The notes under the pieces were generated by a model. It ran no database searches. It had not been told where the DNA came from and worked only from the letters and a program-made list of their open reading frames with translations. From an uncultured Bdellovibrionales bacterium (GTDB lineage Bacteria; Patescibacteriota; Minisyncoccia; Moranbacterales; JAKLHP01), in the NCBI GenBank assembly GCA_964440305.1, contig CAYTRS010000002.1, positions 4,048 to 68,047 of the forward strand: a stretch of 64,000 nucleotides of DNA. The letters are read 5' to 3'. The stretch's first letter is position 1, and each line of letters begins with the position of its first letter. Both the position numbers and the translations under genes were made by a program. Positions 22,352-40,953 of the stretch are shown here, piece after piece.

Positions 22352-23746
22352 TTATTGATTCACAACTTCCCAAAATCCACCCTTATCCGGTCCGATTCTT
22401 TTTATAATTCCCTTGTCTTTTAAGACTTTGACATTATACTCCACTGTTTTTTTCGAAAGCTTGCCCTCTTTCATCATTTCTTCCTTGGAGATGTTTCTAT
22501 TTTTTTCAATCAGACTAACAATGATTTTCTGATTTTCCCTCAATTTTCCTACTCCCTTTTCTACCCCCCGTTCTACTCCCTTTTCTACCCCCTCTTTATA
22601 TTTCTCCATCCTTTGCTCAATGCTCATTTTCTGCAAGTCCGGTCTTTCAAAAGTGATGCTGAAGCGGACATCGCTGACATCCAGTTTTGGATGAGGTAGA
22701 AAATATTCATCCATCATCTCGCTCATTCTCATCAGTCCTGATCCGATCTTTTCCACCAATTCCATTCTTTGCATCAGTCCGAATAGCAGAGTATTTCTGG
22801 GAAAACTTTTTTTGTATAAATCTTCGACTTTGATGTTGCCAATCAAACTCCCCGGATTATCAATTTCTATCCTGTCAGAAAAAATACTGATCTGGATATT
22901 CCCGATGGAAAAATAATCCCTGTGAGCTATCGCATTCAGAAGCGCTTCCCTCAAGGCTTCCGCGGGCAACTCCAAGACTTCTTTTCTTGGACCGCCGCCC
23001 CTGATAATATATTCCGTATTTAATTTTGACTGCAAATAGTTGAAAGCTTCCTGGTAGTTCGCATACAAATCCGCGTCAAATTCTTTACTGTCGATTACCT
23101 TTGTTTTAGATTTGCCACGAAACAAGGCGCAAGTGATCGTGGCGCTGCTGATAAACCGCGAAGCTTTGTTGCAGAACATCAACACTCCTGCATTTTTCAG
23201 CTTATTATCTCCCAATAATTCTAAGTTTCGCAAAACTTCATCCCGGCTCAGTTTGGTCTCTATGCCTATTTTTTTCAAAAAGTTCCCATAAGCATCGTCA
23301 TTGAAATCCTTTTCCAGGTCGAACTTTTTATTCAATTTTTCATCGAAACGAATCAATCCTTCATCCATAAAAAGATCCCTGATTTCGTCTCTTGAGAGCT
23401 GCTGACTGTTGGCGCCTTGGCGCATATAAAATTTTCCTCCGGTTGAATAGGGTTTCTTTTTGCCTTCCGGCACATCAATAATCACCACACCTTCAAATTC
23501 GCTTATATCAACCGAAAAGATCGGATCGAATTTTCTGATCAAATCCTGAATTTCCGATTTCATCCTGTTGTTCAAAGTGACTGGTTTTATTTTACCGTCA
23601 TCAGTAACGCCGATCAAAACCTTGCCCCCATTGGCATTAGCCATGGCGCAGATTTCGCGAGCCAGATTGGAATTATAGCTTTCCTTAAATTCGAGGTTGA
23701 ATCCCTCGCCTTCCTGGATCAAAAAATCAAGTTCTTTATTGTTCAT
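22352..23746 (-). CDS. Schlafen/AlbA_2-domain protein with HATPase_c_4-like middle and C-terminal wHTH (RecG-C-like putative regulator family)
   Basis: N-terminal LIQEGEGFNLEFKESYNSN...ICAMANANGGKVLIGVTDDGKI matches AlbA_2/Schlafen. C-terminal wHTH (IIVSLIEKNRNISKEEMMKEGKLSKKTVEYNVKVLKDKGIIKR). GVEKGVERGVEKGV repeat. Confidence 0.6.
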   Translation of the reverse strand: MNNKELDFLIQEGEGFNLEFKESYNSNLAREICAMANANGGKVLIGVTDDGKIKPVTLNNRMKSEIQDLIRKFDPIFSVDISEFEGVVIIDVPEGKKKPYSTGGKFYMRQGANSQQLSRDEIRDLFMDEGLIRFDEKLNKKFDLEKDFNDDAYGNFLKKIGIETKLSRDEVLRNLELLGDNKLKNAGVLMFCNKASRFISSATITCALFRGKSKTKVIDSKEFDADLYANYQEAFNYLQSKLNTEYIIRGGGPRKEVLELPAEALREALLNAIAHRDYFSIGNIQISIFSDRIEIDNPGSLIGNIKVEDLYKKSFPRNTLLFGLMQRMELVEKIGSGLMRMSEMMDEYFLPHPKLDVSDVRFSITFERPDLQKMSIEQRMEKYKEGVEKGVERGVEKGVGKLRENQKIIVSLIEKNRNISKEEMMKEGKLSKKTVEYNVKVLKDKGIIKRIGPDKGGFWEVVNQ

Positions 23747-26779: not shown

Positions 26780-28285
26780 ATGGAAGAAAAAAATTCAGAA
26801 AAACCCCAAAAACATTCGCCTTGGATGGTTCTCATCACGGTTATGGTCGGGACATTGCTTATCGGACTGGATAGGACAGTAGTCAATCTGGGTTTGCCTA
26901 AGATGATTGCTGATTTTGGAATTTCCGTTTCCTTAGCTGGCTGGATTGCCACCGCCTATATTCTTTCCAACGCGGTTTTCGTGCCTGTTTTTGGAAAACT
27001 TGGTGATATGATAGGAGACCGAAAGATTTATCTTTGGAGCTTTGTCGCCTTTATCGGCACTTCGGTTTTGGCAGGACTTTCCTGGAACATTTCCTCAATG
27101 ATATTTTTTAGGGCTTTGCAGGGGCTGGTAGGAGCCGCCGTTTATCCAACAGCAATGTCTCTGATTGTCAAAAATTTTCCTGACCAAAAAGCGCGCGCGC
27201 AAGCATTGGGAATTTGGTCGGCCTCTTTTGCGGCTTCGGCCGTCTTTGGACCTCTGGTTGGTGGACCGCTGATTGACCTTTATTCTTGGCGGATGTTGTT
27301 TTATATCAATCTTCCTATTGGTATCATCGGTATTTTTATGGTGCTTTTCTATCTTCCGAATGACAAAGGAAAAGAGAAAAAAGGCTTTGATATTTATGGA
27401 GCTATCACGCTTGCCATTGCCCTTTCTAGTCTGGTTCTAGTTTTGGAAAAGGGACGAGAATGGGAATGGACATCGCTTACCAGTATCTTATGTTATGTGC
27501 TGGTTCTAACTTTTGGATTTTGGTTTGTCCAGATTGAGAAAAAACATCCCAGCCCGATGGTGGATTTGAAATTTTTTAAAAATCCAACTTTTGTTTCCGC
27601 TCTGCTGGTTTCTTTTATTTCCTTCGGAGGAATGATGGGCGCAATGTTTTTGCTTCCTATCTTTGTCCAGACCTATTTGGGTTTTGACGCTACTCAAACA
27701 GGATTCCTATTTCTGCCAATGGCTTTGACTATGTTTGTGGCCGCTCCGCTTGGAGCAAAACTTGCTCAGAAAATTCATGTTCGGTATAGTGTTTCATTAG
27801 GAATGCTCCTAGTGGCGTTGGCTATTTATCTTCTCACTGGGCTGGATGCCAGAACTACAGCCTCGGAACTCACACTTCCCTTGATGGTATTGGCTGTCGG
27901 AATGGGCATCGGAATGGCTCCGCTTACCAATGCGGTTGCCAGTTCGGTGCCTGCTCACGAAGTAGGCATTGCCTCAGCTGTCCTTAATCTGACAAGAAAT
28001 ATCGCTGGGGCGGTAGCAATCGCGCTTTTTGGAACACTGCTTAGTAATGTGACCGAGTCAAAAGTTTTGGAAGTTGGAGCTAATACAATAATCAATGATC
28101 CTAAATTTGCTTCACTTTTGCCAGCATTGGTCATACTTAAATCCCAAATTCTAGCTTATCGTGAAGTATTTCTTGTCGCTTCGCTTGTGACGGTAGTCGG
28201 GGCTTTTGTCGCCTTGACGCTCAGGGATTCAAGCAAGATTAAGGATGAAAAAAATGAGTTTGTTCACTTAGAGGGAGGCACTTAA
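26780..28285 (+). CDS. MFS transporter, DHA2 (EmrB-like, 14-TMS) drug efflux
   Basis: 14 predicted TM helices; MFS motif GKLGDMIGDRKIY; EmrB-like topology. Confidence 0.85.
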   Translation: MEEKNSEKPQKHSPWMVLITVMVGTLLIGLDRTVVNLGLPKMIADFGISVSLAGWIATAYILSNAVFVPVFGKLGDMIGDRKIYLWSFVAFIGTSVLAGLSWNISSMIFFRALQGLVGAAVYPTAMSLIVKNFPDQKARAQALGIWSASFAASAVFGPLVGGPLIDLYSWRMLFYINLPIGIIGIFMVLFYLPNDKGKEKKGFDIYGAITLAIALSSLVLVLEKGREWEWTSLTSILCYVLVLTFGFWFVQIEKKHPSPMVDLKFFKNPTFVSALLVSFISFGGMMGAMFLLPIFVQTYLGFDATQTGFLFLPMALTMFVAAPLGAKLAQKIHVRYSVSLGMLLVALAIYLLTGLDARTTASELTLPLMVLAVGMGIGMAPLTNAVASSVPAHEVGIASAVLNLTRNIAGAVAIALFGTLLSNVTESKVLEVGANTIINDPKFASLLPALVILKSQILAYREVFLVASLVTVVGAFVALTLRDSSKIKDEKNEFVHLEGGT

Positions 28286-28334
28286 GAGTAATCTTCTTAA
28301 ATTTACCACGAGTCACCTCCTTTCTAGGGAAATA

Positions 28335-28349
28335 CGGTTGAGACCTCCG
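28335..28349. terminator. Weak hairpin between convergent operons
   Basis: ctccgattttcggag hairpin without a good U-run. Confidence 0.25.
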
Positions 28350-28480
28350 ATTTTCGGAGTTAAGAACCCATATGGTCGTTATAGACTTTAGCATCAGGGC
28401 AACCGCAAAAGTTTGCTATAAAAACAAAGACATTATTTCCGATCGTTTCTTTTTTGAAAAAATATCAACCATCTTCCGAT

Positions 28481-30214
28481 TTACTTGCCTTTTTTAACAG
28501 CTTGTTCATTTAGTCTTTCAATGTATTTGATAACATTTTTTATTTTATCCCATCGCAAAACCTCATCAGTTATTTCGTTTGTATGCATTACCGGATTTCT
28601 TACCGGATTTATTTCTTTAGCATCATTATTCAAGCCTTTTTGATTTTTTTTCTTTTTATTCTGAACTTTATGTATTTTCATGTCTATGATCCCGGCTAAG
28701 CCACAAAGATCTAAATAATTCAAATAACTTTCATTCTTAATGATTTTTCCTTTCAGGGCGTGCCTCTCTTCGTCTTCTTCTCTGAATTTCTTTATCATAT
28801 TAAGACTATCCAAAACATCTTTTTCCTCTTCCACTGACACATCTAAATCGCCTTCCTCAATACCTTTTATTTTTATGTATTCTCTAAAAATATTTTCAAG
28901 GATGAAAAGATCCTGATAAACAAGGGTGTTTTTGTAAGAGAGCAACTTGAGTCTATTTTTTAATTTCTTCTTTGCGTCACTGTCACTAATGGTTGCATTC
29001 AACTTATCTTGAAAATCTTTCTCGCGTCGATTTCGACTCTCTTCCATCCTCACCTCGTACCCAGGTCTGGAATCTTGGTCTATATCAACATCTTGTCGTA
29101 ACTCGCGCCTCCACGGAGTCCAATCTTGTACTATCGTGAATAAGATCTTATTTAGTTCTTTCAAAAATTCTTGATACAAAGGATCACTTTTGATAATCCC
29201 TTCGCGAGAACTTGTAAATCTATCAATTTTCTCATCCTCAAATCCATCGACGTGAATTTCTCCATATAAATATTCTTCGGTAACCGTTTGTCTCGTCACC
29301 TCTTCAAAAATATCTTCCTGCCTCAAGCGACCATTAGTAAACAAGTTAACACTTGCCTTAAAATCGCCCTTGGAACCCCTGAGGAGTATTTGCTTAGCGT
29401 GTTCAACAGAAGCAACAAATCCTTTTATTTGAATCTCTTTTCCATCAAATTTAAAAGAAGTATCTTTGATAGTTTTCTCTCTTTTTAAATTTTTATACCT
29501 GTCTGCAAATCGTTTGTCTTTTGTCCCAATATACCAAATAAACTGAGTATTGGTGTTTAGCTCCTCCAGATCCTTTAGTGTTACTGGTTTATCATTTACC
29601 TTTATAACAAATGAGTCGCCTTTTTTTAGGCTAAAAATAAAATTAAATTGAGTGGCGAGATATTTTCTTATTACATCCTCACTATTGAGTCTTATGTTAA
29701 TCGTGTTGAAAATGATTTTCGTTCCACTCTTTTTGTTTGAAGGAAATAATTTATTTTTCTGATGGTCAGTCAAATTCTCAAGTAAATAGTTACCGCGTTT
29801 TTTAATTTCATCATCAAGTTCAGTGTTGTTTATAATCCCCCCCGTGGTTTCTAATCCACTCTTTTTCGATACTATCGTTACCTTATCGGAAATGGACAAC
29901 ATGGCTAATTTACCTATACCTTTTCTGCCAATTACTTTGCGTTTTGATTTATTGTCTTTGTCATCCCGTCTTGAATATCCAACATTTAAAAACTTGCCCT
30001 GAAAGTCATGGGAATCCATTCCCTTGCCATTGTCTTCAACCACGAGTTGATTTTTACTGATTGTTACTTCGACAACCTTTGCTTCCGCATCCCAGGCGTT
30101 CGAAATAGCCTCTGCGATAACGGTTGCGAAACTCCTATAGAGACCTCTTCCCAAATGGTTTAGAACCTCAAGAGAGAACTCGAACTTAAAAGATTCATCT
30201 TGTACTTCTTTCAT
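28481..30214 (-). CDS. GHKL (HATPase_c_3/MORC-like) ATPase with C-terminal HEPN-like RNxxxH motif; putative effector partner of the adjacent m5C methyltransferase
   Basis: Bergerat-fold motifs: N-box EAISNAWDA, G1 VEDNGKGM, G2 GRKGIGKLA. C-terminal …NPVRNPVMHTNEITDEVLRWDKIKNVIKYIERL contains R-N-x3-H within 30 aa of the end (HEPN-like). Overlaps the Dcm gene by 20 nt. Confidence 0.6.
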   Translation of the reverse strand: MKEVQDESFKFEFSLEVLNHLGRGLYRSFATVIAEAISNAWDAEAKVVEVTISKNQLVVEDNGKGMDSHDFQGKFLNVGYSRRDDKDNKSKRKVIGRKGIGKLAMLSISDKVTIVSKKSGLETTGGIINNTELDDEIKKRGNYLLENLTDHQKNKLFPSNKKSGTKIIFNTINIRLNSEDVIRKYLATQFNFIFSLKKGDSFVIKVNDKPVTLKDLEELNTNTQFIWYIGTKDKRFADRYKNLKREKTIKDTSFKFDGKEIQIKGFVASVEHAKQILLRGSKGDFKASVNLFTNGRLRQEDIFEEVTRQTVTEEYLYGEIHVDGFEDEKIDRFTSSREGIIKSDPLYQEFLKELNKILFTIVQDWTPWRRELRQDVDIDQDSRPGYEVRMEESRNRREKDFQDKLNATISDSDAKKKLKNRLKLLSYKNTLVYQDLFILENIFREYIKIKGIEEGDLDVSVEEEKDVLDSLNMIKKFREEDEERHALKGKIIKNESYLNYLDLCGLAGIIDMKIHKVQNKKKKNQKGLNNDAKEINPVRNPVMHTNEITDEVLRWDKIKNVIKYIERLNEQAVKKGK

Positions 30215-31247
30215 ATTCTTTTATATGCTCTTTAATCGCCTTACCTATTATGACCCCCAGTTGTGGAGGCACTGCATTTCCTATGTGACGACACAGCTGA
30301 GTCATCGGTAAATTCCCGAAATCATACGAAACGGGAAATGTTTGCAACATTGCTCCTTCCCTCAAAGAAATCGCCCTATCCTGCTCCGGATGTCCGAAGC
30401 GACCCGATCCGTAACTGGCAAATTGCGTCGTGATTGTGGGAGAGACTTCATTCCATCGCATGCGACCGTAGACCGATGTATATGTTTGACCGCTGTCTTT
30501 CTTGTAACATTCAGGTAACAATTTTTTATCCCAATCCTTCCAAGAGCCGCCCGGCTTGGATTGGTTGATTCTCTTCATATTAGTTTCGGAAAGACTTTTG
30601 GCTTGATGCATCGGATCTTTTTTGTCCTTTTGCCCGGCTTTCAGTTTCGGTAATTTTTTTATTATATCACCCACCGTAACATAATTTTCTTTCGAATGTG
30701 TTTCTTTGGGGACTTTGATTTCCCCAAGCCGCGAGGCAAGCAATATGAGACGGCTTCTGTTTTGCGGCACTCCGTAATCAGGTGCATACACAACCTTGTA
30801 ATCAACCTTATATCGCATTTCTTCTAATCTCTTCACGAAATTTTCAAAGACATCCTCTTTTGTCACGCCGCGCACATTTTCCATCGATACCAAATCCGGC
30901 TTTACGACTTCAATCGCTCGCACGAAGTGATCCAACATATTCCACCTTTCATCCTTACCTTTCTTTCGCTGCTTGAATGCATGCGATGAAAACGGCTGAC
31001 ATGGCGCGCATCCTACCAAAACTTTGTAACTGTCCTTGGAAAACATTTTTTTCAACTCCTTGAAATCGTACTTTGAAACATCGGCTAATATGAATTCCGC
31101 TTTGTTGTTTTTTTTATAGGCGACGGCACAAGACTCGTCATTGTCAAGACCGGCCAAAACATCAATTCCCGCCTTTTTCAGACCATAGGTAAGTCCGCCT
31201 ATGCCGCTGAACAAATCTATTGCTTCTATTTTTGTTTTATTTCTCAT
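30195..31247 (-). CDS. DNA (cytosine-5)-methyltransferase
   Basis: Motif I DLFSGIGG, motif IV GCAPCQPFS, motif VI ENV, C-terminal GNAVPPQL (motif X). Confidence 0.85.
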   Translation of the reverse strand: MRNKTKIEAIDLFSGIGGLTYGLKKAGIDVLAGLDNDESCAVAYKKNNKAEFILADVSKYDFKELKKMFSKDSYKVLVGCAPCQPFSSHAFKQRKKGKDERWNMLDHFVRAIEVVKPDLVSMENVRGVTKEDVFENFVKRLEEMRYKVDYKVVYAPDYGVPQNRSRLILLASRLGEIKVPKETHSKENYVTVGDIIKKLPKLKAGQKDKKDPMHQAKSLSETNMKRINQSKPGGSWKDWDKKLLPECYKKDSGQTYTSVYGRMRWNEVSPTITTQFASYGSGRFGHPEQDRAISLREGAMLQTFPVSYDFGNLPMTQLCRHIGNAVPPQLGVIIGKAIKEHIKEYERSTR

Positions 31248-31330
31248 TGATGATTGTTTTTAATTTTGTGACTACTTGCCATTTTAGGTTCAAACTCTTA
31301 CCTTCTTTAATTTTACTCTTAATCGGTCGC

Positions 31331-31456
31331 AGAGTAAAGAAAAACGGCCCGTATTTCGTCAAATTTCGCCCACAGGGGCGACTTTCGCGTCGAAAGGGTA
31401 TGGAAGTGCCAATATGCCAGAAACCGGAGTAAACCACTCCGGTTTGGCTGATTTCA
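31331..31456 (-). repeat. Conserved intergenic element copy 1 (upstream of the Dcm/GHKL operon), with extra hairpin ccggagtaaaccactccgg
   Basis: agtaaagaaaaacggcccgtatttcgtcaaatttcgcccacaggggcgactttcgcgtcgaaagggt is homologous to sequences at 35876-35935 and 42625-42700; internal hairpin cgccc-acag-gggcg. Confidence 0.55.
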
Positions 31457-31558
31457 TATAAGCGTCGCGAATCTGTCCCAACATTCGCATTTATTAACCG
31501 TCATGCGCTCATTGCGCTCACTTGCAATAAGCATAATCTTTGTTATGCCTACACAAAG

Positions 31559-32671
31559 TCATGCCTTTTTTATGGCAGACTCAATTAAATCATCGAAAGA
31601 TAGTTCGCCTTTTTTATAGGCGTCAAATGCAGCATCAAGTTCTTTATTTGTAAGAAATCCGTCATATCTAAGTTTTGGAACTGAATCAAAATTATTCTTC
31701 TTGGCTACAACTTTCATAACTTGTCTATTAAATTCATGAATCAAATATGATCTCATTGTATTTAAAAACTTTTTGTATCTCATGACTCTATATACATCAT
31801 AATATTGAGTCATTTTTAAATTATTTCCTTCTGTAAGGTAATGGAAGATAGTTCTTATCTTACTTTTTGCAAGATCATATTTTCTATTTTCGTCTGCATA
31901 GGCTACATATCTTGTTTTTTCAACAGAAAGCGCATGATCATCAGGATCCGCTCCGCTTTTAGCCTTATCCAAACCGAAATCCCAGAATTTTTTTATTTGC
32001 TTTAAATATTTCAAACTCGCTTTTGCTGGAGAATCGCTTGAAATAGGATATTTGCAATAAAAAACTTCTTCTGGCAAAAAGCTAACTTTTCTTGGGATTT
32101 CCTTGTCGCCGTATCCTTTAAAGTAATTCTTATTGGTAAAATAATAAGTTATAATACTATACTTCTGTAAATATTCAGCAATATGTCCATTTCTTTTTTT
32201 GATTTTCATTGTAGAATCACGCAAATAATCAAAATCTACTGGAAGGACATACTTATTGCTCTTAACATCAATCTCATCCCAGCATGTTCTATAAAAAGAA
32301 ATACCAGTGACCATGAGTTGATAAGCAATCATATTTAAAAACCCTCCAAGATCATCACCATTCCCATATAAATTGTCTCGGTATCGGGAATATTTATCAG
32401 TAAAATATTTTTCTAAATCTTCTTTTATTGTTAGGTTGTCACATTCAAATGAAAAATAATCTCTTTCATGCGTTATATATCCTGGTCTATCTGAAACTGG
32501 CACATCGCGAAGTGGAAATAATGAATTTCTTATAAACATTGTTTCGTTAAATAAGCCCATGGAATCACGAGAAGCAGCTTCTAGCCTAGAGTAGCCCTTG
32601 ATATAGCTCAAGAATGGATCGTCGATTGAGCTTCCATCTTTATCAAATATAGTTTTATTTCTTCGTTTCAT
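31559..32671 (-). CDS. Hypothetical protein (370 aa), third gene of an uncharacterized three-gene operon
   Basis: ORF track; 17-nt overlap with the upstream gene; no recognisable motif. Confidence 0.5.
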   Translation of the reverse strand: MKRRNKTIFDKDGSSIDDPFLSYIKGYSRLEAASRDSMGLFNETMFIRNSLFPLRDVPVSDRPGYITHERDYFSFECDNLTIKEDLEKYFTDKYSRYRDNLYGNGDDLGGFLNMIAYQLMVTGISFYRTCWDEIDVKSNKYVLPVDFDYLRDSTMKIKKRNGHIAEYLQKYSIITYYFTNKNYFKGYGDKEIPRKVSFLPEEVFYCKYPISSDSPAKASLKYLKQIKKFWDFGLDKAKSGADPDDHALSVEKTRYVAYADENRKYDLAKSKIRTIFHYLTEGNNLKMTQYYDVYRVMRYKKFLNTMRSYLIHEFNRQVMKVVAKKNNFDSVPKLRYDGFLTNKELDAAFDAYKKGELSFDDLIESAIKKA

Positions 32672-35126
32672 TGATTTTTGATAATACGGTTACAAAGCTT
32701 AAAACCTCCTCTCTTCTTTTTATAAATTCTACAAATTTTTCAACGCTATCATCTTCAATATTTCCAAGTCCATAACTAACTTCTCTGATAAATTTACTAG
32801 GATGATTGGCTACTTCCTGCATTCCAGAATAAAACCTAACATGGTCATATGTTTTTGGCATCTCAAGTATTTTATGATGAATCTGCGTATACCAATTGTG
32901 ATATTTCGTGGTTTCCCACTGGATAAGCTTAGTGGTTAAGTCAATGCCTCCAATGTTTCTTGCGTCTCCAAGGATTTCTATGGATTTTATGAAATAGCCT
33001 GGTCTGTAAGATTTTTCAAAAATTTTCACATACTCAATGAGCATTTTTTTATTTTGCTCCAATTCTGAGTGCAGAAACAAAAATCCTCCCAAGATAACTA
33101 CTAATCGATTTCTTAATATAAACATATCCGTGTTTGTTTCATTCACATTAAGCACGGATATTATTAGCGATAATATCTTGGATAGCTCTACAAATAATGC
33201 CTTTCTTTTTTTAAGAATAGATTGAAAAATAATCTTTTCTATTTCTTCAAGCAACTCGAGTTTAATGAGTATTTCTTTTGGGATGGTAAGTATGTAGGCA
33301 GCACACTTCGAAATGTCCTGAGAAAATTCATTTGCAAGAGTGAATTTATTTAGGTAAAACATTCTACTAATCCACTCGAATCTGATCTTTATAAAATGCG
33401 CACAATTTTCGTAATCTTTCTTCTTGATTAAATCAATTATGACATCTTCTTGATGATGAAGCATTTCACTAAAAAACTTCTTAAAAAGTTCTTTTTCTCT
33501 GCTTTTGACGCTACCCAACATTTCTTCCTCAAGATTTTTTACAGGAGTCATGATTTTGCCTTCGCACCCTTGTTCCAATTCCAAACGTTTCCAATAATCT
33601 ATAAATTGTTCATAGAAAATTGATGGCAGATCAATATTTTCTACAAAACCCTGACCATTTGAAAGCTTTCCATCATTACCAACTAAGGATCTGATGATCT
33701 CCTTGTATTTCTTGTATTTGAACCCGTCTATCAATACCAGTCCTGTTGTAAAATATGCATTCAAATAATCGTTTAGGTCTTCTTGCTTGGTTATATTTTT
33801 ATACAAATCCAAAAATGATCTAAAGAATTTATCATAAGTTTCAATTTCTTGATTTTCATAGATTCCATAAATCTTTTTCTGTCCACTATTAGTTTTTGAA
33901 TAATCACCACTTAATATGGTTTGATAAGATTTGATAACATGACTTAACAAATCTGGATTACTATTTATTGCATGGGATTGAATCTTTTGAAAAAGGGTAA
34001 AAGCATTATCTTCAAACCATGATAAATCTGGTTTTGGTAAAAATAACGGTCCAGTTCCTTGTAGCTCATAGTTGAGTTTTATAATGCTTTCAGATGAGCT
34101 ACCAGATTTTGCCAAATCGTGCTTTTGGTAAAACCACCATCCATTCTCCCTATCTATATACTTTTTATTTCCCGCGTACTCCGTAATGACAAAAGCAAGC
34201 ACAGTTGGAGCATAGATCGCATCACTATTGTTTTTAATTTTCAACAAATCATCAAATAAATTTTCGAGTAATCGCAACAATTTTCTAGTATTATTTCGAG
34301 CGTGCTGTACAAGGCTCCAACTTTTATACTTATAGGAAGATTTATCAGAAGCCGTTTTTATATTATCTCGAATATCACTCCAAAGTCTTTCAAATAGATG
34401 CTTGGGCTTAATTGTAACTATATAATGACTTTTGAAAATTATAATTCCCAATAAAGAAATAACGACCATCAAGCAAGCTATGGCAAAGCTAAATATTGGT
34501 TCAGGATAATCAAAAAATTCTGTTCGCAATAAAACAGAGATAGCCAGTAAATCAGTGAACACTAAAAGTTTAAAATAAAAGCTACCGACAGTTTCCTCAT
34601 TAACATAATCAGATACTTCCGATGAATATTTATCTGTACTTAATTGGAAGCCAACGGCGTATAAGGCAAATAATAAACCGAGAACCGCCGATATTGCACC
34701 AATAGATATCTCCAAAAACAACTCGATAAAATCTCGCCCAGGCACTCTGATGAAAGACAGGCTATTTGAAAATCCTTGTAATTGATCAAGTCCGATTAGC
34801 CATGCGGATGTTTTTGAAATAAGCAAGTCAATCGCAAATGAAACAACTATAAAAATAATAATCAGTGATATGATTTCACCCGACAACCTCACTATTTCAT
34901 TAACAATTTTATACTCCTTAATGCGCAATTGAAGTTTGAAGCTACTGACCCTAAAGCCCTCCTTCCTTTTTTGAAATTGATAATAAATAAATCCAAACAA
35001 TCTTGAAAAAAATTGATAAAATATATTACCATTTTCATCGCCAGGGTATGAATACTTTTTCTTTCTCTTTATCAGTCTGCTGATAAAGAGGAGCAAGAGG
35101 TATTTTATTGTTTTTAGATATCGCAT
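32655..35126 (-). CDS. Hypothetical 823-aa protein: N-terminal about 4 TM helices plus large helical cytoplasmic domain
   Basis: Hydrophobic segments about aa 75-230 (IISLIIIFIVVSFAIDLL, IGAISAVLGLLFALYAV, LLAISVLL, IACLMVVISLLGIIIF); rest K/E/L/I/F-rich helical; no NTPase or nuclease motif seen. Confidence 0.5.
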   Translation of the reverse strand: MRYLKTIKYLLLLFISRLIKRKKKYSYPGDENGNIFYQFFSRLFGFIYYQFQKRKEGFRVSSFKLQLRIKEYKIVNEIVRLSGEIISLIIIFIVVSFAIDLLISKTSAWLIGLDQLQGFSNSLSFIRVPGRDFIELFLEISIGAISAVLGLLFALYAVGFQLSTDKYSSEVSDYVNEETVGSFYFKLLVFTDLLAISVLLRTEFFDYPEPIFSFAIACLMVVISLLGIIIFKSHYIVTIKPKHLFERLWSDIRDNIKTASDKSSYKYKSWSLVQHARNNTRKLLRLLENLFDDLLKIKNNSDAIYAPTVLAFVITEYAGNKKYIDRENGWWFYQKHDLAKSGSSSESIIKLNYELQGTGPLFLPKPDLSWFEDNAFTLFQKIQSHAINSNPDLLSHVIKSYQTILSGDYSKTNSGQKKIYGIYENQEIETYDKFFRSFLDLYKNITKQEDLNDYLNAYFTTGLVLIDGFKYKKYKEIIRSLVGNDGKLSNGQGFVENIDLPSIFYEQFIDYWKRLELEQGCEGKIMTPVKNLEEEMLGSVKSREKELFKKFFSEMLHHQEDVIIDLIKKKDYENCAHFIKIRFEWISRMFYLNKFTLANEFSQDISKCAAYILTIPKEILIKLELLEEIEKIIFQSILKKRKALFVELSKILSLIISVLNVNETNTDMFILRNRLVVILGGFLFLHSELEQNKKMLIEYVKIFEKSYRPGYFIKSIEILGDARNIGGIDLTTKLIQWETTKYHNWYTQIHHKILEMPKTYDHVRFYSGMQEVANHPSKFIREVSYGLGNIEDDSVEKFVEFIKRREEVLSFVTVLSKINETKK

Positions 35127-35130
35127 GACC

Positions 35131-35838
35131 TTATTTCAATCTAGCATATTCTTCTTTTAATCTGATTAACATCTCCGGATAATACCGAAAAAAGCTTTGT
35201 ATCTTTTTGATATCGCCGTTGGAAATTTTCCCTTTTTTCATACTGTCAAACTCCAATGTATTTATATCGAACCGCGCATCAATATTTCTTTGCTTTGAAA
35301 TTACATGGAAATGTGCAGGCGGGTGGTCTTTCGGATGCAACTCCATTCTTAAATCACCGGCAGCAGCTATAAATCTTTTTATTTTATAGACCGTGCCATC
35401 CGGCAACACCTGCGTCGAATCAAGGTGTACTTCCAATAAGTCCGCGACACTCCTCTTTAATCTTGGCGCGATTAACTCATCCCTCGTGTTATCCTTGGTA
35501 TTGGTTTTGTCGTCGAGAGTGAGAGCTAGCTCTTTCGGATCAAGATATTTCTTGCAATCTGACCATATAGTGTTTTTATTTCCCTTTTTAAAATTTTCAA
35601 ATTCGGATTCGACTTCAAATAATCCCACAACGACACCAAGCGCGTATTCACCGTCTTTTAATCGAAATACTTCTCCGTAAAAAACAGTGCCGACATGTTT
35701 GTCCCAATCATGCTCTATGAGATAAGGAATATATTTGCTATTGATCTGGTCGGCCATACCCTCAAGCGCATTTTTGGACATACGTTCTCCATGCCTGTCC
35801 ACATGGGTAGTGCTCATTATTCCAGTAATAATCCTCAT
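35131..35838 (-). CDS. Fusion protein: unknown N-terminal domain (~150 aa) plus C-terminal DUF4160 (HxPxHFH) domain
   Basis: C-terminal LRMELHPKDHPPAHFHVISKQRNIDARFDINTLEFDSMKKGKISNGDIKKIQSFFRYYPEMLIRLKEEY matches the DUF4160 pattern (…RDHNPPHFHA…G…I…L…W). 5-nt gap to the next gene. Confidence 0.5.
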   Translation of the reverse strand: MRIITGIMSTTHVDRHGERMSKNALEGMADQINSKYIPYLIEHDWDKHVGTVFYGEVFRLKDGEYALGVVVGLFEVESEFENFKKGNKNTIWSDCKKYLDPKELALTLDDKTNTKDNTRDELIAPRLKRSVADLLEVHLDSTQVLPDGTVYKIKRFIAAAGDLRMELHPKDHPPAHFHVISKQRNIDARFDINTLEFDSMKKGKISNGDIKKIQSFFRYYPEMLIRLKEEYARLK

Positions 35839-35875
35839 TTTTTATAAATGTCAAATCAATTAACCTTAGCTAGGC

Positions 35876-35935
35876 TCTATTTCGCCAAATTTCGCCCACA
35901 GGGGCGATTACCACCCGAAAGCGTCCGAACATGCT
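35876..35935 (-). repeat. Conserved intergenic element copy 2 (upstream of the three-gene operon)
   Basis: ctatttcgccaaatttcgcccacaggggcgattaccacccgaaagcg: 33/34-nt identity with copy 1 core. Confidence 0.55.
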
Positions 35936-35977
35936 TATTTACTGGAAATCGGTCCAAACTCGCTCAAAGCCAAAAAG

Positions 35978-36715
35978 CTATCTTATCGAATTCCAATTAT
36001 CCAAAAAGTAGTCCATCTCATGATCCATATTCCCGAGGTATACGTGATTGTCTCTGAATTTTATATTCACGCGATAGCGTTTGCCTTGTCCCACTTCCAA
36101 TATTGCTTTTTCATGTACCTTCTTTTCTATCTCAAGAAAAGGCAAGATTAAAAAATGATTCTGTTTTTCTCCATGTAAAACAAAAATGTAAAATACACTG
36201 CCACTATTGTGACGTTCGAATGATACTTTTCTGATATCGAAAACATAGGCATCAAAACGGTTTAGGTTGGAGGTTTTCACTTGTATTCCAAAAAGTTGAG
36301 TTCCTTTTACTGCCACGATATCCATTCCGACATCTACGCTCATAATACTGGCGTTGAAACCGCGAAAAAGCAGTTCGCTGCAAACCAAGTGCTCGCCGCC
36401 TTTCCCTGTGAATCCACTTTCTACAACCAGTCTCTCTTCCGCCTCTTTTTCGGCTTCTATAATTTTCGGCGTTTGCTTTACCTCTTTTTTATCATGATTA
36501 AGCGTAAAAGTTCCGGGTGCGGTTTTCATGAAATCCGAGCCCTTGCCCTTGTTTTTAATATCTACCGTAATTTGGGCGTTCATTGAAGCTTCAGGCGTTG
36601 CTCCTTCGGTCTCTAAAATTCCCGATTCCAAAGCCAACCGCGTGATTTCGGTGTAATGCAAAGACTTTCCTGCTTTTTTCAGCACTTTGATTGCTGATTG
36701 TTTGAATGTGTTCAT
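35978..36715 (-). CDS. Mrr_N/HARE-type winged-helix plus Hjc-like PD-(D/E)xK nuclease fusion (putative restriction-type endonuclease), last gene of the Type I R-M operon
   Basis: N-terminal SAIKVLKKAGKSLHYTEITRLALESGILETEGATPEASMNAQI (Mrr N-terminal-like wHTH). C-terminal GEHLVCSELLFRGFNASIMSVDVGMDIVAVKGTQLFGIQVKTSN resembles archaeal Hjc (…ER.L…L…GF.A.R…PDI.A.K……IE.K.S) with E…D…(I/V)QVK. 3-nt gap to hsdR. Confidence 0.5.
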   Translation of the reverse strand: MNTFKQSAIKVLKKAGKSLHYTEITRLALESGILETEGATPEASMNAQITVDIKNKGKGSDFMKTAPGTFTLNHDKKEVKQTPKIIEAEKEAEERLVVESGFTGKGGEHLVCSELLFRGFNASIMSVDVGMDIVAVKGTQLFGIQVKTSNLNRFDAYVFDIRKVSFERHNSGSVFYIFVLHGEKQNHFLILPFLEIEKKVHEKAILEVGQGKRYRVNIKFRDNHVYLGNMDHEMDYFLDNWNSIR

Positions 36716-36718
36716 ATT

Positions 36719-39700
36719 TTATTCTGTAAATTTACCACCCGATATATCAAAGAATCTTTCAAAGAAATTCGTGAGTTTCGTTAAAACACTCTCACGCTTT
36801 TTGGAACGCTCGCCGGTCGGAGAAAAGCGGGATACAGGAGGCAAGACCTTAGTAATAGCAGTACCGGTTGTCGCTACACTACCGTCACGGAAAGCATTTT
36901 TTACAAACGCATAAGTTGCATCGTGATCCAAACCTTCATTGTCAATAATTTTTTCAAGCTCCTCAATCTTTTTCTTATTCACGAATTTCTGCCAATCATC
37001 ATCAACCACCGAATGAATATCAAGTGAAGTGATAAACTGATTAATGAGATCTTTCTTATTGCGTAGTTCAATGCTTGAGTCTATTGCTTTATTAATATCA
37101 ACCAAAATCTCGCGATTTTTATTGTGGTCTTCGTGATATTTCTTGATGAGTCCCAACACAAAGTCAATATTTATTTCTACCTGCTTGATAAGCTCCATCT
37201 CAAACACTAAATCATCGTTAATATTTTCCTGATCAATGTCTGCATTTTTACGAAATTCATTGTACAGATCAATGTACATACTATGATAATCTTGAATATC
37301 GCGCTCAGTTAAAATCTCATTGCCGGCAAACTCATCAAAAGTTGTCAAAATGTTACGAACTCGTAATATCCCGCCATAGAGCTTGATAAAATCTTTCTGT
37401 TTTTGTTCGCCAATGATTTGCTCACCGACTGGGAATTTTTCCAGGAGCTCTGCCACTAAACCTGTATATCCGCGCACTTCCTTGTTACCGTCTTTGTAGC
37501 CGTTATAATACTCCTCGTATGATTTAAGAAGTACAATACCGCCCGCTTCTTTATCGCCAAATAGAGCTATGGATTCGTTTGTCGCTTTCTCTAGGTTACG
37601 GAAGCAAACAATGTTTCCAAAGGTCTTTACGCTATTTAAAATACGATTGGTACGCGAAAATGCCTGCAAGAGTCCATGCAGTCTCAAGTTTTTATCCACC
37701 CAAAGCGTGTTCAGCGTTGTGGCGTCAAAGCCGGTCAAAAACATATTGACCACAATCAGGACATCAATCTCGCGGTTTTTCACTCTCAAACTCACGTCTT
37801 TGTAATAATTTTGAAACTTATCCGATGAAGTATCAAAAGACGTTCCAAACATCGCATTGTAATCAATAATTGCATTATCAAGAAAATCTCTTGAACTCAC
37901 ATCGAGTCCGCTCGTATCTTCTGAGTTTTCGTCTATCATTCCATCGGCGTCTTCATCATTCACGCCGAAGCTATAAATTGTTGCTATCTTGAGTTGTTTG
38001 TCACTCGGTACATTTGTGAGTTGTTTTTTAAATTCGGCATAATACTTTTTTGCGACATCAATGGACGAAACCGCAAATATAGAATTAAAGCCTGCTAATC
38101 TTCTGTCCTTCAGTTTATAAAAACTGTTACGCTTGGTCTTTTGGTCAAAATGTTCGCGAATGTAGCTGACGATATTTGCTAAGCGCTCTGGCGAAGCAAG
38201 TACCGCCTCTCGATCGATATCACTGACTTTCTTATCTTCAATATTTTCAGCTTCACGAACAGTAGAAACATAATCCACTTTAAACGGCAAAACATTTTTA
38301 TCAGCGATGGCATTTACAATGGTGTAGGTATGCAGTTTTTCACCAAAGGCTTGCTCGGTGGTTTTCAAGTCCGGTCGTCCGCTAGAAGACGCGTTCATGG
38401 CAAAAATTGGTGTACCGGTAAAACCAAAGAGGTTGTAATTCTTGAATGTTTTGGTAATAGCGGCGTGCATATCGCCAAACTGTGAACGGTGACATTCGTC
38501 AAAGATAAGCACTACATGCCCATCAAAAATAGTATGCCCGGAATTGCGCCCAATAAAACGATCGAGTTTCTGGATAGTGGTGATGATAATTCGTGCGTTC
38601 GGATTTTCCAATTGTTTCTTCAAAATCGCCGTACTGGTATTACTATTGGCCGCACCTTTCTCAAACTTATCGTATTCTCGCATGGTCTGATAGTCCAAGT
38701 CCTTGCGGTCAACCACAAACATCACCTTATCCACATACGTCAATCTACTCACGAGCTGGGCAGTCTTGAAACTGGTCAAAGTTTTTCCCGATCCGGTCGT
38801 GTGCCAAATGTACCCTCCAGCCTCAACCGTGCCAAGTTTCTTGTAGTTCGTGCTGACTTCAATGCGACTCAATATTCTCTCTGTCGCCACTATCTGATAT
38901 GGTCGCATCGCCAAAAGCTGTCGTTCAGTGGTAAAAACACAATAGCGGGTCAAAATATTTAAAAGCGCGTGTTTGGCAAAAAATGTCTTGACAAAATCCA
39001 TCAGATCCGTAATTGGTCGATTGGTAGCATCTGCCCACCAACTGGTAAATTCAAAACTGCTGCTAGAGCGCTTACCTTTTTTCACCGCACCCTCACTGGC
39101 TTCTTTGATATGCTCCGAACGGACGGTGTTGCTATAATATTTTGTATGCGTGCCATTGGAAATTATAAATAGTTGAACATATTCAAAAAGCCCCGCCGAA
39201 GCCCAAAAACTTTCGCGTTGATAACGGTTAATCTGATTGAATGCCTCGGCAATAGCGACTCCACGGCGCTTGAGCTCGACATGCACCATCGGCAAACCAT
39301 TAACAAGAATCGTTACATCATAGCGATTAGCGCGTTGCCCATCTTCAGTCGCATATTGATTGATGACCTGCAAGCTATTGTCGTGAATGTTGTCTTTTTT
39401 TATAAGATACACATTTTTGACTGTTCCGTCCTCGCGCGTCAGGTTTCTAATATGATCTTCTTGGATCGTTGCTGTTTTTTCTGCAATGCTTTGGTTTGGA
39501 TTGGCAATTTCACTTGCAAAGAAATTCTCCCATTCAGCATCAGCAAAAGTAAACCCATTGAGTTTCTCCAATTGCAAACGGAGGTTCGATACCAAATCAG
39601 ATTCAGATGTGATAGCTAGATATTCGTACGCTTGCGTTTCGAGTTGTTTTATAAAAGCACGCTCCAGATCCGCCTCGCTTTGATAAGAAACACCATCCCG

Positions 39701-40952: not shown

Positions 40953-40953
40953 A

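What the first reader, a model, noticed from the sequence alone, without database searches (positions are those of the whole stretch)
28481..31247. m5C methyltransferase paired with a GHKL/MORC-like ATPase carrying a C-terminal HEPN-like RNxxxH motif
The 577-aa protein has a complete Bergerat ATP-binding fold at its N-terminus (EAISNAWDA, EDNGKGM, GRKGIGKLA). Its last 30 residues read NPVRNPVMHTNEITDEVLRWDKIKNVIKYIERL, i.e. R-N-x3-H in a helical C-terminal segment. That is the canonical placement of the HEPN RNase motif.

The gene overlaps the Dcm gene by 20 nt (Dcm first), so the two are translationally coupled like an R-M pair.

GHKL/MORC ATPases are known components of prokaryotic restriction-type systems (Iyer, Abhiman & Aravind 2008). 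A GHKL ATPase fused to a HEPN-like module and guarded by an m5C methyltransferase would be an unusual effector combination: ATP-driven, with RNA or DNA targeting, toxic unless the DNA is methylated.
Basis: partly seen in the sequence, partly recalled or inferred. Interest (0 to 1): 0.7.

Follow-up and report, generated by a model that had tools for sequence, protein, structure and literature searches.

The report
Methylase paired with ATPase–HEPN RNase effector
A DNA cytosine methylase gene overlaps a gene whose product looks like a known restriction enzyme, except that its DNA-cutting end has been replaced by a predicted RNA-cutting (HEPN) domain; this looks like a mobile, untested variant of a predicted kind of bacterial anti-virus system.

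Summary
A 350-aa m5C methyltransferase (30195-31247, minus strand) overlaps by 20 nt a 577-aa protein (28481-30214, minus strand).

- **N-terminal two thirds.** This part is a complete GHKL ATPase plus an S5-type transducer. It is homologous to the BbrUII/HgiDII ("paraMORC3") family of type II restriction enzymes.
- **C-terminus.** That family's C-terminal nuclease region is replaced by a divergent Swt1-like HEPN domain.
 - In 38 sequences down to about 20% identity, the only invariant residues are Y433, E440, N441, R444, R539 and H544.
 - A profile comparison with Pfam-validated HEPN_Swt1 proteins gives 98.8% probability.
- **Gene context.** 62 of 63 related loci have an m5C methylase beside the ATPase gene. 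Nothing else is consistently conserved. Copies occur in phages, on a plasmid and next to serine recombinases.
- **Not housekeeping.** It is not MutL or HtpG.
- **Prior knowledge.** GHKL-HEPN fusions in restriction-modification neighbourhoods were predicted in 2013, for the Ymh type of HEPN, so the theme is known.

This Swt1-type family, a direct effector swap on a proven restriction-enzyme chassis, appears undescribed and untested. The trigger (unmethylated DNA, or loss of the methylase) is inferred, not shown.

The parts
30195..31247 (-). m5C DNA methyltransferase (350 aa), first gene of the pair
   Evidence: Pfam DNA_methylase 1e-62 over residues 8-339. TIGR00675 dcm scores 150.7 bits against a cut-off of 100.65. 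PADLOC MTase_II 1.8e-96. Its target-recognition region (residues 176-290) is 44-70% identical to those of 50 of the 56 partner methylases compared, from all three ATPase classes.
30195..30214 (-). 20-nt overlap between the methylase stop codon and the ATPase start codon
   Evidence: Read directly from the sequence. The upstream, same-strand, overlapping or abutting arrangement recurs in most related loci.
28481..30214 (-). GHKL-S5-HEPN protein (577 aa; stop codon at 28481-28483)
   Evidence: ORF. 120 listed full-length homologues of 54-87% identity, 1662 matches in all. NCBIfam NF050001 (BbrUII/HgiDII restriction enzyme) matches residues 9-425 only: 291 bits against a cut-off of 550.
29690..30187 (-). 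GHKL (Bergerat-fold) ATP-binding domain, residues about 10-175
   Evidence: HATPase_c_3 5.6e-22. Motif I-IV residues are invariant or nearly invariant. Translation checked.
29186..29689 (-). S5-type transducer domain, residues about 176-343, including the invariant GEIH (318-321) and DRFTSSRE (331-338) motifs
   Evidence: The full-length model aligns over about 420 columns to the N+M domains of TRAP1/Hsp90, the MORC2/3/4 ATPase modules and GyrB 43K, E about 1e-12. The motifs are shared with the BbrUII/HgiDII class. The boundaries are approximate.
28925..29185 (-). Long helical linker, residues about 344-430
   Evidence: Helices 345-371, 385-408 and 412-449 in the models. The NCBIfam match to BbrUII/HgiDII ends at residue 425.
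28484..28924 (-). Divergent Swt1-like HEPN domain, residues about 431-577
28883..28897 (-). E-N-x-x-R motif (ENIFR, residues 440-444) in the first core HEPN helix
   Evidence: E440, N441 and R444 are invariant in 38 diverse sequences. Translation checked.
28583..28600 (-). R-x4-H catalytic motif of HEPN (RNPVMH, residues 539-544)
   Evidence: R539 and H544 are invariant in 38 diverse sequences. The motif is also present in the class B genomic loci aligned, and in the viral, plasmid and prophage copies. Translation checked.

Best explanation
This is a mobile two-gene module derived from a type II restriction-modification system.

- Gene 1 is an m5C methyltransferase of the type that partners BbrUII/HgiDII-family enzymes.
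- Gene 2 keeps the ATPase chassis of the BbrUII/HgiDII ('paraMORC3') restriction enzymes, that is a GHKL domain, an S5 transducer and a helical linker. Its C-terminal DNA-nuclease region has been exchanged for a Swt1-like HEPN domain, a metal-independent RNase.

Proposed mechanism:
1. The protein dimerises through its GHKL domains when it binds ATP, as GHKL/MORC/MutL ATPases do.
2. This clamp responds to target DNA that lacks the partner's cytosine methylation.
3. It then brings the two HEPN domains together into an active composite R-x4-H site.
4. The output is RNA cleavage, with growth arrest or abortive infection, rather than DNA cleavage.
5. The methylase keeps the host's own DNA from triggering it.

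Shown here: the domain identities, the conserved catalytic residues, the effector swap, the near-obligate linkage to the methylase, and the mobility. Inferred: RNase activity, ATP-driven dimer activation, and the nature of the trigger.
For: - ATPase identity: HATPase_c_3 and invariant ATP-binding motifs. A GHKL+S5 fold like Hsp90, MORC and GyrB.
- Relation to a known restriction enzyme: residues 9-425 match positions 1-419 of the 659-position BbrUII/HgiDII model. Longer relatives from the same loci search pass that model's equivalog cut-off (734 and 689 bits against 550). They carry a C-terminal 'LDIAYR...H.IVELKRP' (D...ExK-like) region instead of the HEPN domain.
- Linkage to the methylase: an m5C methylase is adjacent in 62 of 63 loci, and no other gene is consistently conserved.
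- Related methylases across classes: the partner methylases of the HEPN-type and the nuclease-type ATPases share a related target-recognition region, mostly 44-70% identical.
- Partner exchange: methylase and ATPase lineages have been exchanged. The window and L004 share 75% ATPase identity but 47% methylase identity. The window and L015 share 42% and 64%. This fits communication through the DNA mark better than a co-adapted protein contact, though only weakly.
- Mobility and defence setting: an 87%-identical copy lies inside a phage head module. Ten viral contigs and a conjugative plasmid carry the 35-38%-identical class. The window copy sits next to a type I R-M system.
- Natural decay: in a near-identical genome a 1-nt deletion splits the effector gene while the methylase is intact, as expected for a costly or toxic effector.
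Against: - No experiment exists for this family or, as far as the searched literature shows, for any GHKL-HEPN fusion.
- No DNA-recognition element has been identified in the 577-aa protein. If sequence reading in BbrUII/HgiDII enzymes resides in the lost C-terminal region, the HEPN version may not sense DNA itself.
- In the full-length model the motif region has low confidence.
- The direct Pfam hit is below threshold.
- GTCGAC, the site I recall for HgiDII, is not avoided in the window: 6 observed against 9.1 expected. The actual target site is unknown.
Confidence: 0.55

Rival explanations
1. PrrC-like guard or addiction module. The HEPN RNase is held inactive by direct contact with the methylase protein. 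It fires when the methylase is inhibited by a phage product or is lost with the element. It does not read DNA methylation. This is the model Anantharaman et al. proposed for paraMORC-Ymh HEPN fusions.
For: - The literature proposal for analogous fusions (PMC3710099).
- Tight, usually overlapping gene order with the methylase first.
- No recognisable DNA-reading domain in the effector.
- The pair is carried by phages, a plasmid and recombinase-flanked elements, where addiction would pay.
Against: - Methylase and ATPase lineages have been swapped repeatedly, which is harder to reconcile with a co-adapted inhibitory interface.
- The same ATPase chassis works as a bona fide restriction enzyme in the BbrUII/HgiDII class.
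- The methylase target-recognition region stays as conserved as the catalytic core.
Confidence: 0.25
2. An ordinary type II restriction endonuclease. The protein still cuts unmethylated DNA, either through an unrecognised DNase site or through an atypical DNA-directed activity of the HEPN-like domain.
For: - PADLOC REase_II models (3.3e-46, 7.7e-33) and the NCBIfam BbrUII/HgiDII model hit the protein.
- The gene organisation is that of a classical R-M pair, sometimes with Vsr.
Against: - Those hits cover only the ATPase two thirds (residues 6-425).
- The D...ExK-like region of the true family members is absent.
- No PD-(D/E)XK, HNH, GIY-YIG or PLD family is found.
- By established knowledge of the fold, HEPN catalysis uses the RNA 2'-OH, so DNA cleavage is not expected.
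Confidence: 0.1
3. The HEPN-like domain is non-catalytic, serving for dimerisation or nucleic-acid binding. The protein is then an accessory ATPase for some other nuclease.
For: - Some HEPN domains are inactive, for example eukaryotic Swt1 and human sacsin (PMC3710099).
- A few loci carry a second GHKL protein next to the same methylase.
Against: - The residues that are invariant are exactly the catalytic signature: E-N-x-x-R and R-x4-H.
- No other gene is consistently linked.
Confidence: 0.08
4. A housekeeping GHKL protein, that is a MutL or HtpG paralogue.
For: Weak sequence hits to MutL and Hsp90 in the ATP-binding domain.
Against: - Scores are 15-31 bits against cut-offs of 180-750.
- The phyletic spread is patchy, with phage and plasmid carriage and methylase linkage.
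Confidence: 0.02

Closest known systems
BbrUII/HgiDII-family type II restriction enzymes (NCBIfam NF050001; the family annotated 'ParaMORC3' in E. coli phage PhiR44_1; paraMORC3 of Iyer, Abhiman & Aravind 2008)
   Same: - Homologous GHKL + S5 + linker: residues 9-425 match model positions 1-419, 2e-86.
- Shared GEIH and DR.T.SRE motifs.
- An adjacent, related m5C methylase, often with Vsr.
   Different: - The C-terminal roughly 240 residues of that family are absent and replaced by a roughly 150-residue HEPN domain. That region holds the D...ExK-like motif, and Iyer et al. assigned the paraMORC3 C-terminus to the restriction-endonuclease fold (PMC2292703).
- The score of 291 bits is below the equivalog cut-off of 550.
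- The expected substrate is RNA, not DNA.
paraMORC GHKL ATPases fused to Ymh-family HEPN domains in R-M neighbourhoods (Anantharaman et al. 2013; R.NmeAIP in Orlowski & Bujnicki 2008)
   Same: The same architecture logic: an N-terminal GHKL ATPase, a C-terminal HEPN domain, and an R-M gene context. A PrrC/RloC-like role was predicted for them (PMC3710099; PMC2441816).
   Different: The HEPN domain here is of the Swt1/Abi2 type, not Ymh. None of 22 family members hits Pfam Hypoth_Ymh at E up to 1, while 8 hit HEPN_Swt1. So this is an independent fusion or a domain exchange. Whether the ATPase parts are the same paraMORC family was not tested.
Swt1-like HEPN (Pfam PF18731) and the Abi2/AbiF/AbiD clade
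   Same: - The E-N-x-x-R and R-[ND]-x3-H signatures.
- hhalign 98.8% to validated members.
   Different: - Too divergent to pass the Pfam cut-off directly (15.8 bits against 27.5).
- Fused to a GHKL ATPase rather than standing alone or fused to HTH or AAA+ modules.
PrrC and RloC anticodon nucleases
   Same: An ATPase N-terminus regulating a C-terminal HEPN RNase. PrrC is embedded in, and silenced by, an R-M system (PMC3710099).
   Different: - Those use an ABC ATPase, not a GHKL ATPase.
- PrrC's partner is a complete type I R-M system, not a lone m5C methylase.
- There is no sequence relationship outside the HEPN fold.
Sacsin (eukaryotic Hsp90-like GHKL repeats with a C-terminal HEPN domain)
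   Different: Sacsin is a giant eukaryotic chaperone with HEPN-T type HEPN, no methylase context, and a human HEPN domain that lacks the motif. This is an analogy, not orthology.
PADLOC defence candidate PDC-M34 (component B)
   Same: Residues 391-551 match the 192-position PDC-M34B model at 3.3e-7. This is probably the stand-alone Swt1-HEPN proteins also found.
   Different: PDC-M34B is a stand-alone protein of about 190 aa in a different candidate system. No literature on it was found.

Membership tests
GHKL (Bergerat-fold) ATPase superfamily | Four ATP-binding motifs: E-x3-N-x2-D; D-x-G-x-G; the glycine-rich lid; G-T | tested here: met
   HATPase_c_3 5.6e-22. E35, N39, D42, D61, G96, G101 and T165 are invariant, and G63, G65, G99 and G164 nearly so, in 65 sequences.
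MORC / paraMORC-type GHKL+S5 module | An S5-fold transducer domain directly after the GHKL domain | tested here: met
   The model aligns over about 400-445 columns to the MORC2/3/4 ATPase modules, TRAP1 N+M and GyrB 43K, E about 1e-10 to 1e-12, with target-normalised TM-scores mostly 0.31-0.54. The basic 'finger' residue was not assigned; the candidate R337 lies in a low-confidence loop.
BbrUII/HgiDII family restriction enzyme (NCBIfam NF050001, equivalog) | Whole-protein score of at least 550 bits over the full 659-position model, including the C-terminal region | tested here: not met
   291 bits, and only model positions 1-419 are matched. True members from the same loci search score 734 and 689 bits over positions 1-659.
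paraMORC3 (Iyer et al. 2008) | A C-terminal restriction-endonuclease-fold domain with E-D-ExK motifs | tested here: not met
   The D...ExK-like segment of the long class has no counterpart here. The C-terminus is all-helical.
HEPN superfamily | A conserved R-x4-6-H motif | tested here: met
   R539-x4-H544 is invariant in 65 close sequences and 38 diverse sequences. It is present in every aligned HEPN-type relative from genomes, and in the viral and plasmid copies.
HEPN superfamily | An all-alpha up-and-down helical bundle with HEPN topology | tested here: inconclusive
Swt1-like HEPN (Pfam PF18731) | Score at or above the Pfam gathering cut-off (27.5 bits) | tested here: not met
   15.8 bits, E 0.018. 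8 of 22 family members give sub-threshold hits.
Swt1-like HEPN (Pfam PF18731) | Homology to validated members, with shared E-N-x-x-R and R-N-x3-H motifs | tested here: met
   The family profile retrieves six proteins that pass PF18731 (33-59 bits) at library-wide E values from 8e-7 to 6e-4. hhalign gives 98.8% probability, E 1.2e-16. Caveat: those six were selected by the same profile.
Ymh-type HEPN (Pfam PF09509) fused to paraMORC | The C-terminal domain matches Hypoth_Ymh | tested here: not met
   No Hypoth_Ymh hit at E up to 1 in any of 22 members.
Type II restriction-modification system | A cognate methyltransferase encoded next to the restriction component | tested here: met
   A methylase is adjacent in 62 of 63 loci, mostly upstream on the same strand and overlapping.
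Type II restriction-modification system | The restriction component has a DNA endonuclease domain and cuts unmethylated DNA | tested here: not met
   No DNase family was detected. Cleavage activity itself cannot be tested with these tools.
MutL / HtpG housekeeping ATPases | NCBIfam equivalog scores above the cut-offs | tested here: not met
   MutL models score 15-26 bits against cut-offs of 180-750, and the HSP90-family model scores 31 bits against 455.
PrrC/RloC anticodon nucleases | An ABC-type ATPase N-terminal domain | tested here: not met
   The N-terminus is GHKL, not ABC. The resemblance is functional only.

The most novel reading that the evidence does not exclude
A restriction-modification system whose 'restriction' arm is an RNase. 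The GHKL-S5 clamp inherited from a sequence-specific restriction enzyme detects DNA that lacks the partner's 5-methylcytosine mark. It answers by switching on a HEPN RNase, giving abortive infection or dormancy, instead of cutting the DNA. Self/non-self discrimination by DNA methylation would then be wired directly to an RNA-level suicide response. Relatives on the same chassis carry a D...ExK-like nuclease region, or a third, unassigned C-terminal domain. This suggests a general 'methylation-sensing ATPase with exchangeable effector' design.
Probability: 0.35. Interest if true: 0.8.

Novelty: new variant of a known kind. Interest (0 to 1): 0.55.

Why it matters
HEPN RNases are often found beside restriction-modification genes, but how they are controlled there is largely conjecture based on PrrC.

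Here nature has done a clean swap. The ATPase chassis and the partner methylase family are the same as in proven type II enzymes (BbrUII/HgiDII), and the DNA nuclease has been replaced by a HEPN domain. Comparing the two versions side by side could show:
- what the GHKL-S5 module senses;
- whether DNA methylation status can gate an RNase;
- how effectors are exchanged on a common sensor.

The system has only two genes and a 577-aa effector. It is phage- and plasmid-borne, and it is abundant among candidate-phyla-radiation (CPR) bacteria, whose defence biology is little known. It is therefore experimentally tractable.

Tried and rejected
- A word-indexed homologue search with the C-terminal 193 aa returned only fragments of the same family. 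It was superseded by the exhaustive profile search.
- Searching the C-terminal profile against PDB sequences gave nothing meaningful.
- Foldseek of the C-terminal model against the PDB gave no hit. The afdb50 library was unavailable.
- The full-length AlphaFold model gave low confidence and odd strands at the R-x4-H region. The domain-only model with a more diverse alignment was used instead.
- Pfam finds no family for the C-terminus of the BbrUII/HgiDII-class relatives. Its nuclease assignment therefore rests on the D...ExK-like motif and on Iyer et al. 2008.
- Pfam also finds nothing for a third C-terminal type in L073 and L024. My by-eye impression of a TIR-like start is unsupported.
- An Rfam scan of 27500-32500 found no RNA family, so there is no sign of an AbiF-style antitoxin RNA.
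- The promoter and terminator scan was not above chance.
- GTCGAC is not depleted in the window, so there is no hint about the target site.
- Literature searches found no experimental work on GHKL-HEPN fusions or on PDC-M34.
- One paper describes M.BbrUII as an adenine methylase. That conflicts with the m5C partners seen here. I could not resolve this and did not rely on it.
- The housekeeping MutL/HtpG reading was rejected on scores and gene context.
Full report
**1. The observation**

A 350-aa protein is encoded at 30195-31247 and a 577-aa protein at 28481-30214, both on the minus strand. The junction reads ...gaatATGaaagaagtacaagaTGA. The ATG of the second gene therefore lies 20 nt inside the first.

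The first protein is an m5C DNA methyltransferase: Pfam DNA_methylase 1e-62, and TIGR00675 above its cut-off. The second protein carries HATPase_c_3 at residues 28-154 (5.6e-22).

The quoted C-terminal string is correct. RNPVMH occupies residues 539-544, that is 34-39 residues from the end.

**2. The ATPase part**

All four Bergerat motifs are invariant or nearly so in 65 full-length homologues.

A full-length AlphaFold model (pLDDT 76) aligns over about 420 columns with the N+M domains of TRAP1/Hsp90, the MORC2/3/4 ATPase modules and GyrB 43K (E about 1e-12). The protein is therefore a GHKL domain followed by an S5-type transducer, as in MORC, MutL, Hsp90 and GyrB.

It is not a housekeeping enzyme. 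MutL and HSP90-family NCBIfam models score 15-31 bits against cut-offs of 180-750.

The informative hit is NCBIfam NF050001, 'BbrUII/HgiDII family restriction enzyme'. Residues 9-425 match model positions 1-419 of 659, at 2e-86 and 291 bits, below the 550-bit equivalog cut-off. PADLOC type II restriction-enzyme models likewise match only residues 6-374.

**3. Three classes on one chassis**

A scan of one genome per species returned 61 loci. Together with two metagenomic loci these fall into three classes.

- **Class A:** about 570 aa, 54-76% identical to the window protein, mostly from Patescibacteria (CPR) genomes.
- **Class B:** about 550-577 aa, 35-39% identical, matched through residue about 552.
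- **Class C:** about 660-720 aa, about 30% identical over the first 370-430 residues only.

Class C proteins pass the BbrUII/HgiDII equivalog cut-off over the whole model (734 and 689 bits). A class C homologue is annotated 'ParaMORC3' next to 'Dcm' in the E. coli P2-like phage PhiR44_1.

The class C C-terminus has a conserved 'HLWLLDPTWDR ... LDIAYR..GRH.IVELKRP' segment. This is a D...ExK-like motif. It agrees with the restriction-endonuclease fold that Iyer et al. assigned to the paraMORC3 C-terminus (PMC2292703). Pfam itself finds nothing there, and Orlowski & Bujnicki left the R.HgiDII C-terminus unassigned (PMC2441816).

Classes A and B lack this segment and end in a shorter all-helical domain.

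**4. The C-terminal domain is a divergent Swt1-like HEPN**

*Direct scan.* The direct Pfam hit is sub-threshold: HEPN_Swt1 at 15.8 bits, E 0.018, residues 494-551. 8 of 22 family members give such hits, and none hits the Ymh family. PADLOC PDC-M34B matches residues 391-551 at 3.3e-7.

*Exhaustive profile search.* A profile of residues 385-577 from 22 class A proteins was searched against 1.84 billion representatives. It found only 55 proteins at E up to 1e-3.
- Most of the longer hits are the C-termini of 550-590-aa GHKL proteins.
- Several are short proteins, and six of these pass Pfam HEPN_Swt1 (33-59 bits against 27.5).
- hhalign of the class A profile against those six gives 98.8% probability, E 1.2e-16, spanning both motifs. 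The six were selected by the same profile, but their Pfam membership is independent evidence.

*Conservation.* In a 38-sequence alignment reaching about 20% identity, the only invariant columns are Y433, E440, N441, R444, R539 and H544. These are the E-N-x-x-R helix and the R-x4-H motif that define catalytically active HEPN domains of the Swt1/Abi2 type. Class B proteins from genomes, viral contigs and a plasmid all keep both motifs.

*Structure.* A domain-only AlphaFold model is confident (pLDDT 87.5, pTM 0.79) and all-alpha.
- Foldseek found nothing.
- Fold evidence therefore supports the assignment but is not decisive. The sequence-profile evidence carries the claim.

**5. Gene context**

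An m5C methylase lies beside the ATPase gene in 62 of 63 loci. In classes A and B it is almost always immediately upstream on the same strand, overlapping or abutting. No other gene is consistently conserved.

Vsr is present in 1 of 13 class A loci, 7 of 9 class B loci and 18 of 34 class C loci. It is absent from the window.

The partner methylases of all three classes are related throughout, including the target-recognition region. That region is 44-70% identical to the window enzyme in 50 of 56 partners, about as conserved as the catalytic core. This suggests similar specificities, but I could not determine the site.

Methylase and ATPase lineages have been recombined.
- The window ATPase is 75% identical to that of L004, while their methylases are 47% identical.
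- The window methylase is 64% identical to that of class B locus L015, while the ATPases are 42% identical.

**6. Mobility and setting**

Exact-sequence look-ups name the source as Candidatus Moranbacteria / Moraniibacteriota.

In the window the pair lies at the edge of a defence island. The island holds a type I R-M system (hsdM, hsdS, hsdR), a HARE-HTH/PD-(D/E)XK-like protein, a DUF4160 protein, and a DUF2254 membrane protein with a 370-aa partner.

Evidence for mobility:
- An 87%-identical homologue sits, together with Vsr, between the portal and prohead-protease genes of a phage.
- Ten IMG/VR viral contigs and a conjugative Paracoccus plasmid carry class B pairs.
- Seven of 13 class A loci have a large serine recombinase nearby.

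In a near-identical MAG the effector gene is split into 305-aa and 272-aa products. The cause is a 1-nt deletion at a GG dinucleotide, not a long homopolymer, and the methylase there is intact.

**7. How it most likely works**

*Shown here:*
- a methylase plus a GHKL-S5 ATPase with intact ATP-binding motifs;
- a C-terminal HEPN domain with an intact catalytic signature;
- replacement of the nuclease region found in a proven restriction-enzyme family;
- near-obligate linkage to the methylase;
- horizontal mobility.

*Inferred from established knowledge.* GHKL ATPases dimerise on ATP binding. HEPN RNases need a dimer to form the composite R-x4-H site and use the RNA 2'-OH. I therefore propose that the ATPase clamp controls juxtaposition of two HEPN domains, and that the output is RNA cleavage with growth arrest or abortive infection.

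*The trigger is the weakest step.*
- I favour unmethylated target DNA (R-M logic with an RNase output). The same chassis and methylase family operate as a true R-M system in class C. The methylase recognition region stays conserved. Partners are freely exchanged.
- The main rival is the PrrC-like guard or addiction model that Anantharaman et al. proposed for analogous fusions.
- Against my favoured model, no DNA-reading element has been identified in the 577-aa protein.

**8. Comparison with what is known**

The general theme is known. Iyer et al. 2008 showed paraMORC GHKL+S5 ATPases in R-M operons with variable C-terminal domains, such as the restriction-endonuclease fold in paraMORC3 and TIR in paraMORC4. 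Orlowski & Bujnicki 2008 listed R.NmeAIP as GHKL + Hypoth_Ymh. Anantharaman et al. 2013 recognised Ymh as HEPN and noted its fusion to paraMORCs in R-M neighbourhoods.

What I did not find described is this family. It is a BbrUII/HgiDII-type chassis with a Swt1-type HEPN, forming a two-gene unit with an HgiDII-type m5C methylase.

I therefore file it as a new variant of a known kind. It is not a member of NF050001 or paraMORC3, because the C-terminal criterion was tested and not met. It is not a Ymh fusion either.

**9. Verdict**

The novelty was overstated, and the mechanism remains untested.

Interest is moderate to good at 0.55. The finding offers a natural, compact, comparable pair of systems (DNase against RNase on one sensor) for asking how HEPN RNases linked to R-M systems are controlled.

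Noticed in passing
window 29300-29320 (codons about 299-305 of the 577-aa gene): In a near-identical Candidatus Moranbacteria MAG (HOX10594.1 and HOX10593.1, seen on 6 contigs) this gene is split into 305-aa and 272-aa products. The cause is a 1-nt deletion at 'cagGaa'. The neighbouring methylase there (HOX10595.1) has exactly the window enzyme's sequence. This looks like natural inactivation of the effector with the methylase retained.
   Followed up: partly
L070 6689-10125 (ENA ERZ15185467 contig): An 87%-identical Dcm + GHKL-HEPN + Vsr cassette is inserted in a phage head module, between the portal/Mu_F gene and the S78 prohead protease and capsid genes. Ten IMG/VR viral contigs (L072-L081) carry the 35-38%-identical class with the same gene order.
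   Followed up: partly
L073 3056-4942 and L024 3908-5818: A third kind of GHKL protein (628 and 636 aa) sits beside the methylase and near the GHKL-HEPN gene. In L073 the order is Dcm, this protein, then GHKL-HEPN. Its C-terminal region of about 250 aa is neither the HEPN domain nor the D...ExK-like domain, and it has no Pfam hit. It suggests a further effector swap, or a two-effector system on one methylase.
   Followed up: partly
window 31559-35126, minus strand: A 370-aa protein with no family hit and an 823-aa DUF2254-like membrane protein overlap by 17 nt. They lie directly upstream of the methylase. They travel with the pair in the Moranbacteria contigs but not in other homologous loci, and they have no PADLOC match. 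This is possibly a separate, uncharacterised defence pair.
   Followed up: no
window 35131-42564, minus strand: This stretch is a defence island. It holds a DUF4160 protein (35131-35838), a HARE-HTH protein with a weak PD-(D/E)XK_5 hit (35978-36715), and a complete type I R-M system: hsdR 36719-39793, hsdS 39777-41069 and hsdM 40954-42564.
   Followed up: partly
window 22352-23746, minus strand: A 464-aa protein with Schlafen AlbA_2, HATPase_c_4 and winged-helix domains. It has PADLOC hits to the N-terminal regions of pAgo and Aga-type proteins. It lies about 4.7 kb from the pair, beyond a MarR/HlyD/MFS efflux operon.
   Followed up: no
L003, L004, L007, L008, L009, L010, L019 (class A loci): A large serine recombinase (Resolvase + Recombinase + Zn_ribbon_recom) lies near the Dcm/GHKL-HEPN pair in 7 of 13 class A loci, in varying position and orientation. 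This suggests carriage on integrative elements.
   Followed up: partly
literature, PMC5829577: This paper states that M.BbrUII is an N6-adenine methylase. That does not fit the m5C methylases found next to every BbrUII/HgiDII-family protein here, including one in a Bifidobacterium MAG (L025). It may be a naming mix-up between the BbrU systems; I did not resolve it.
   Followed up: no
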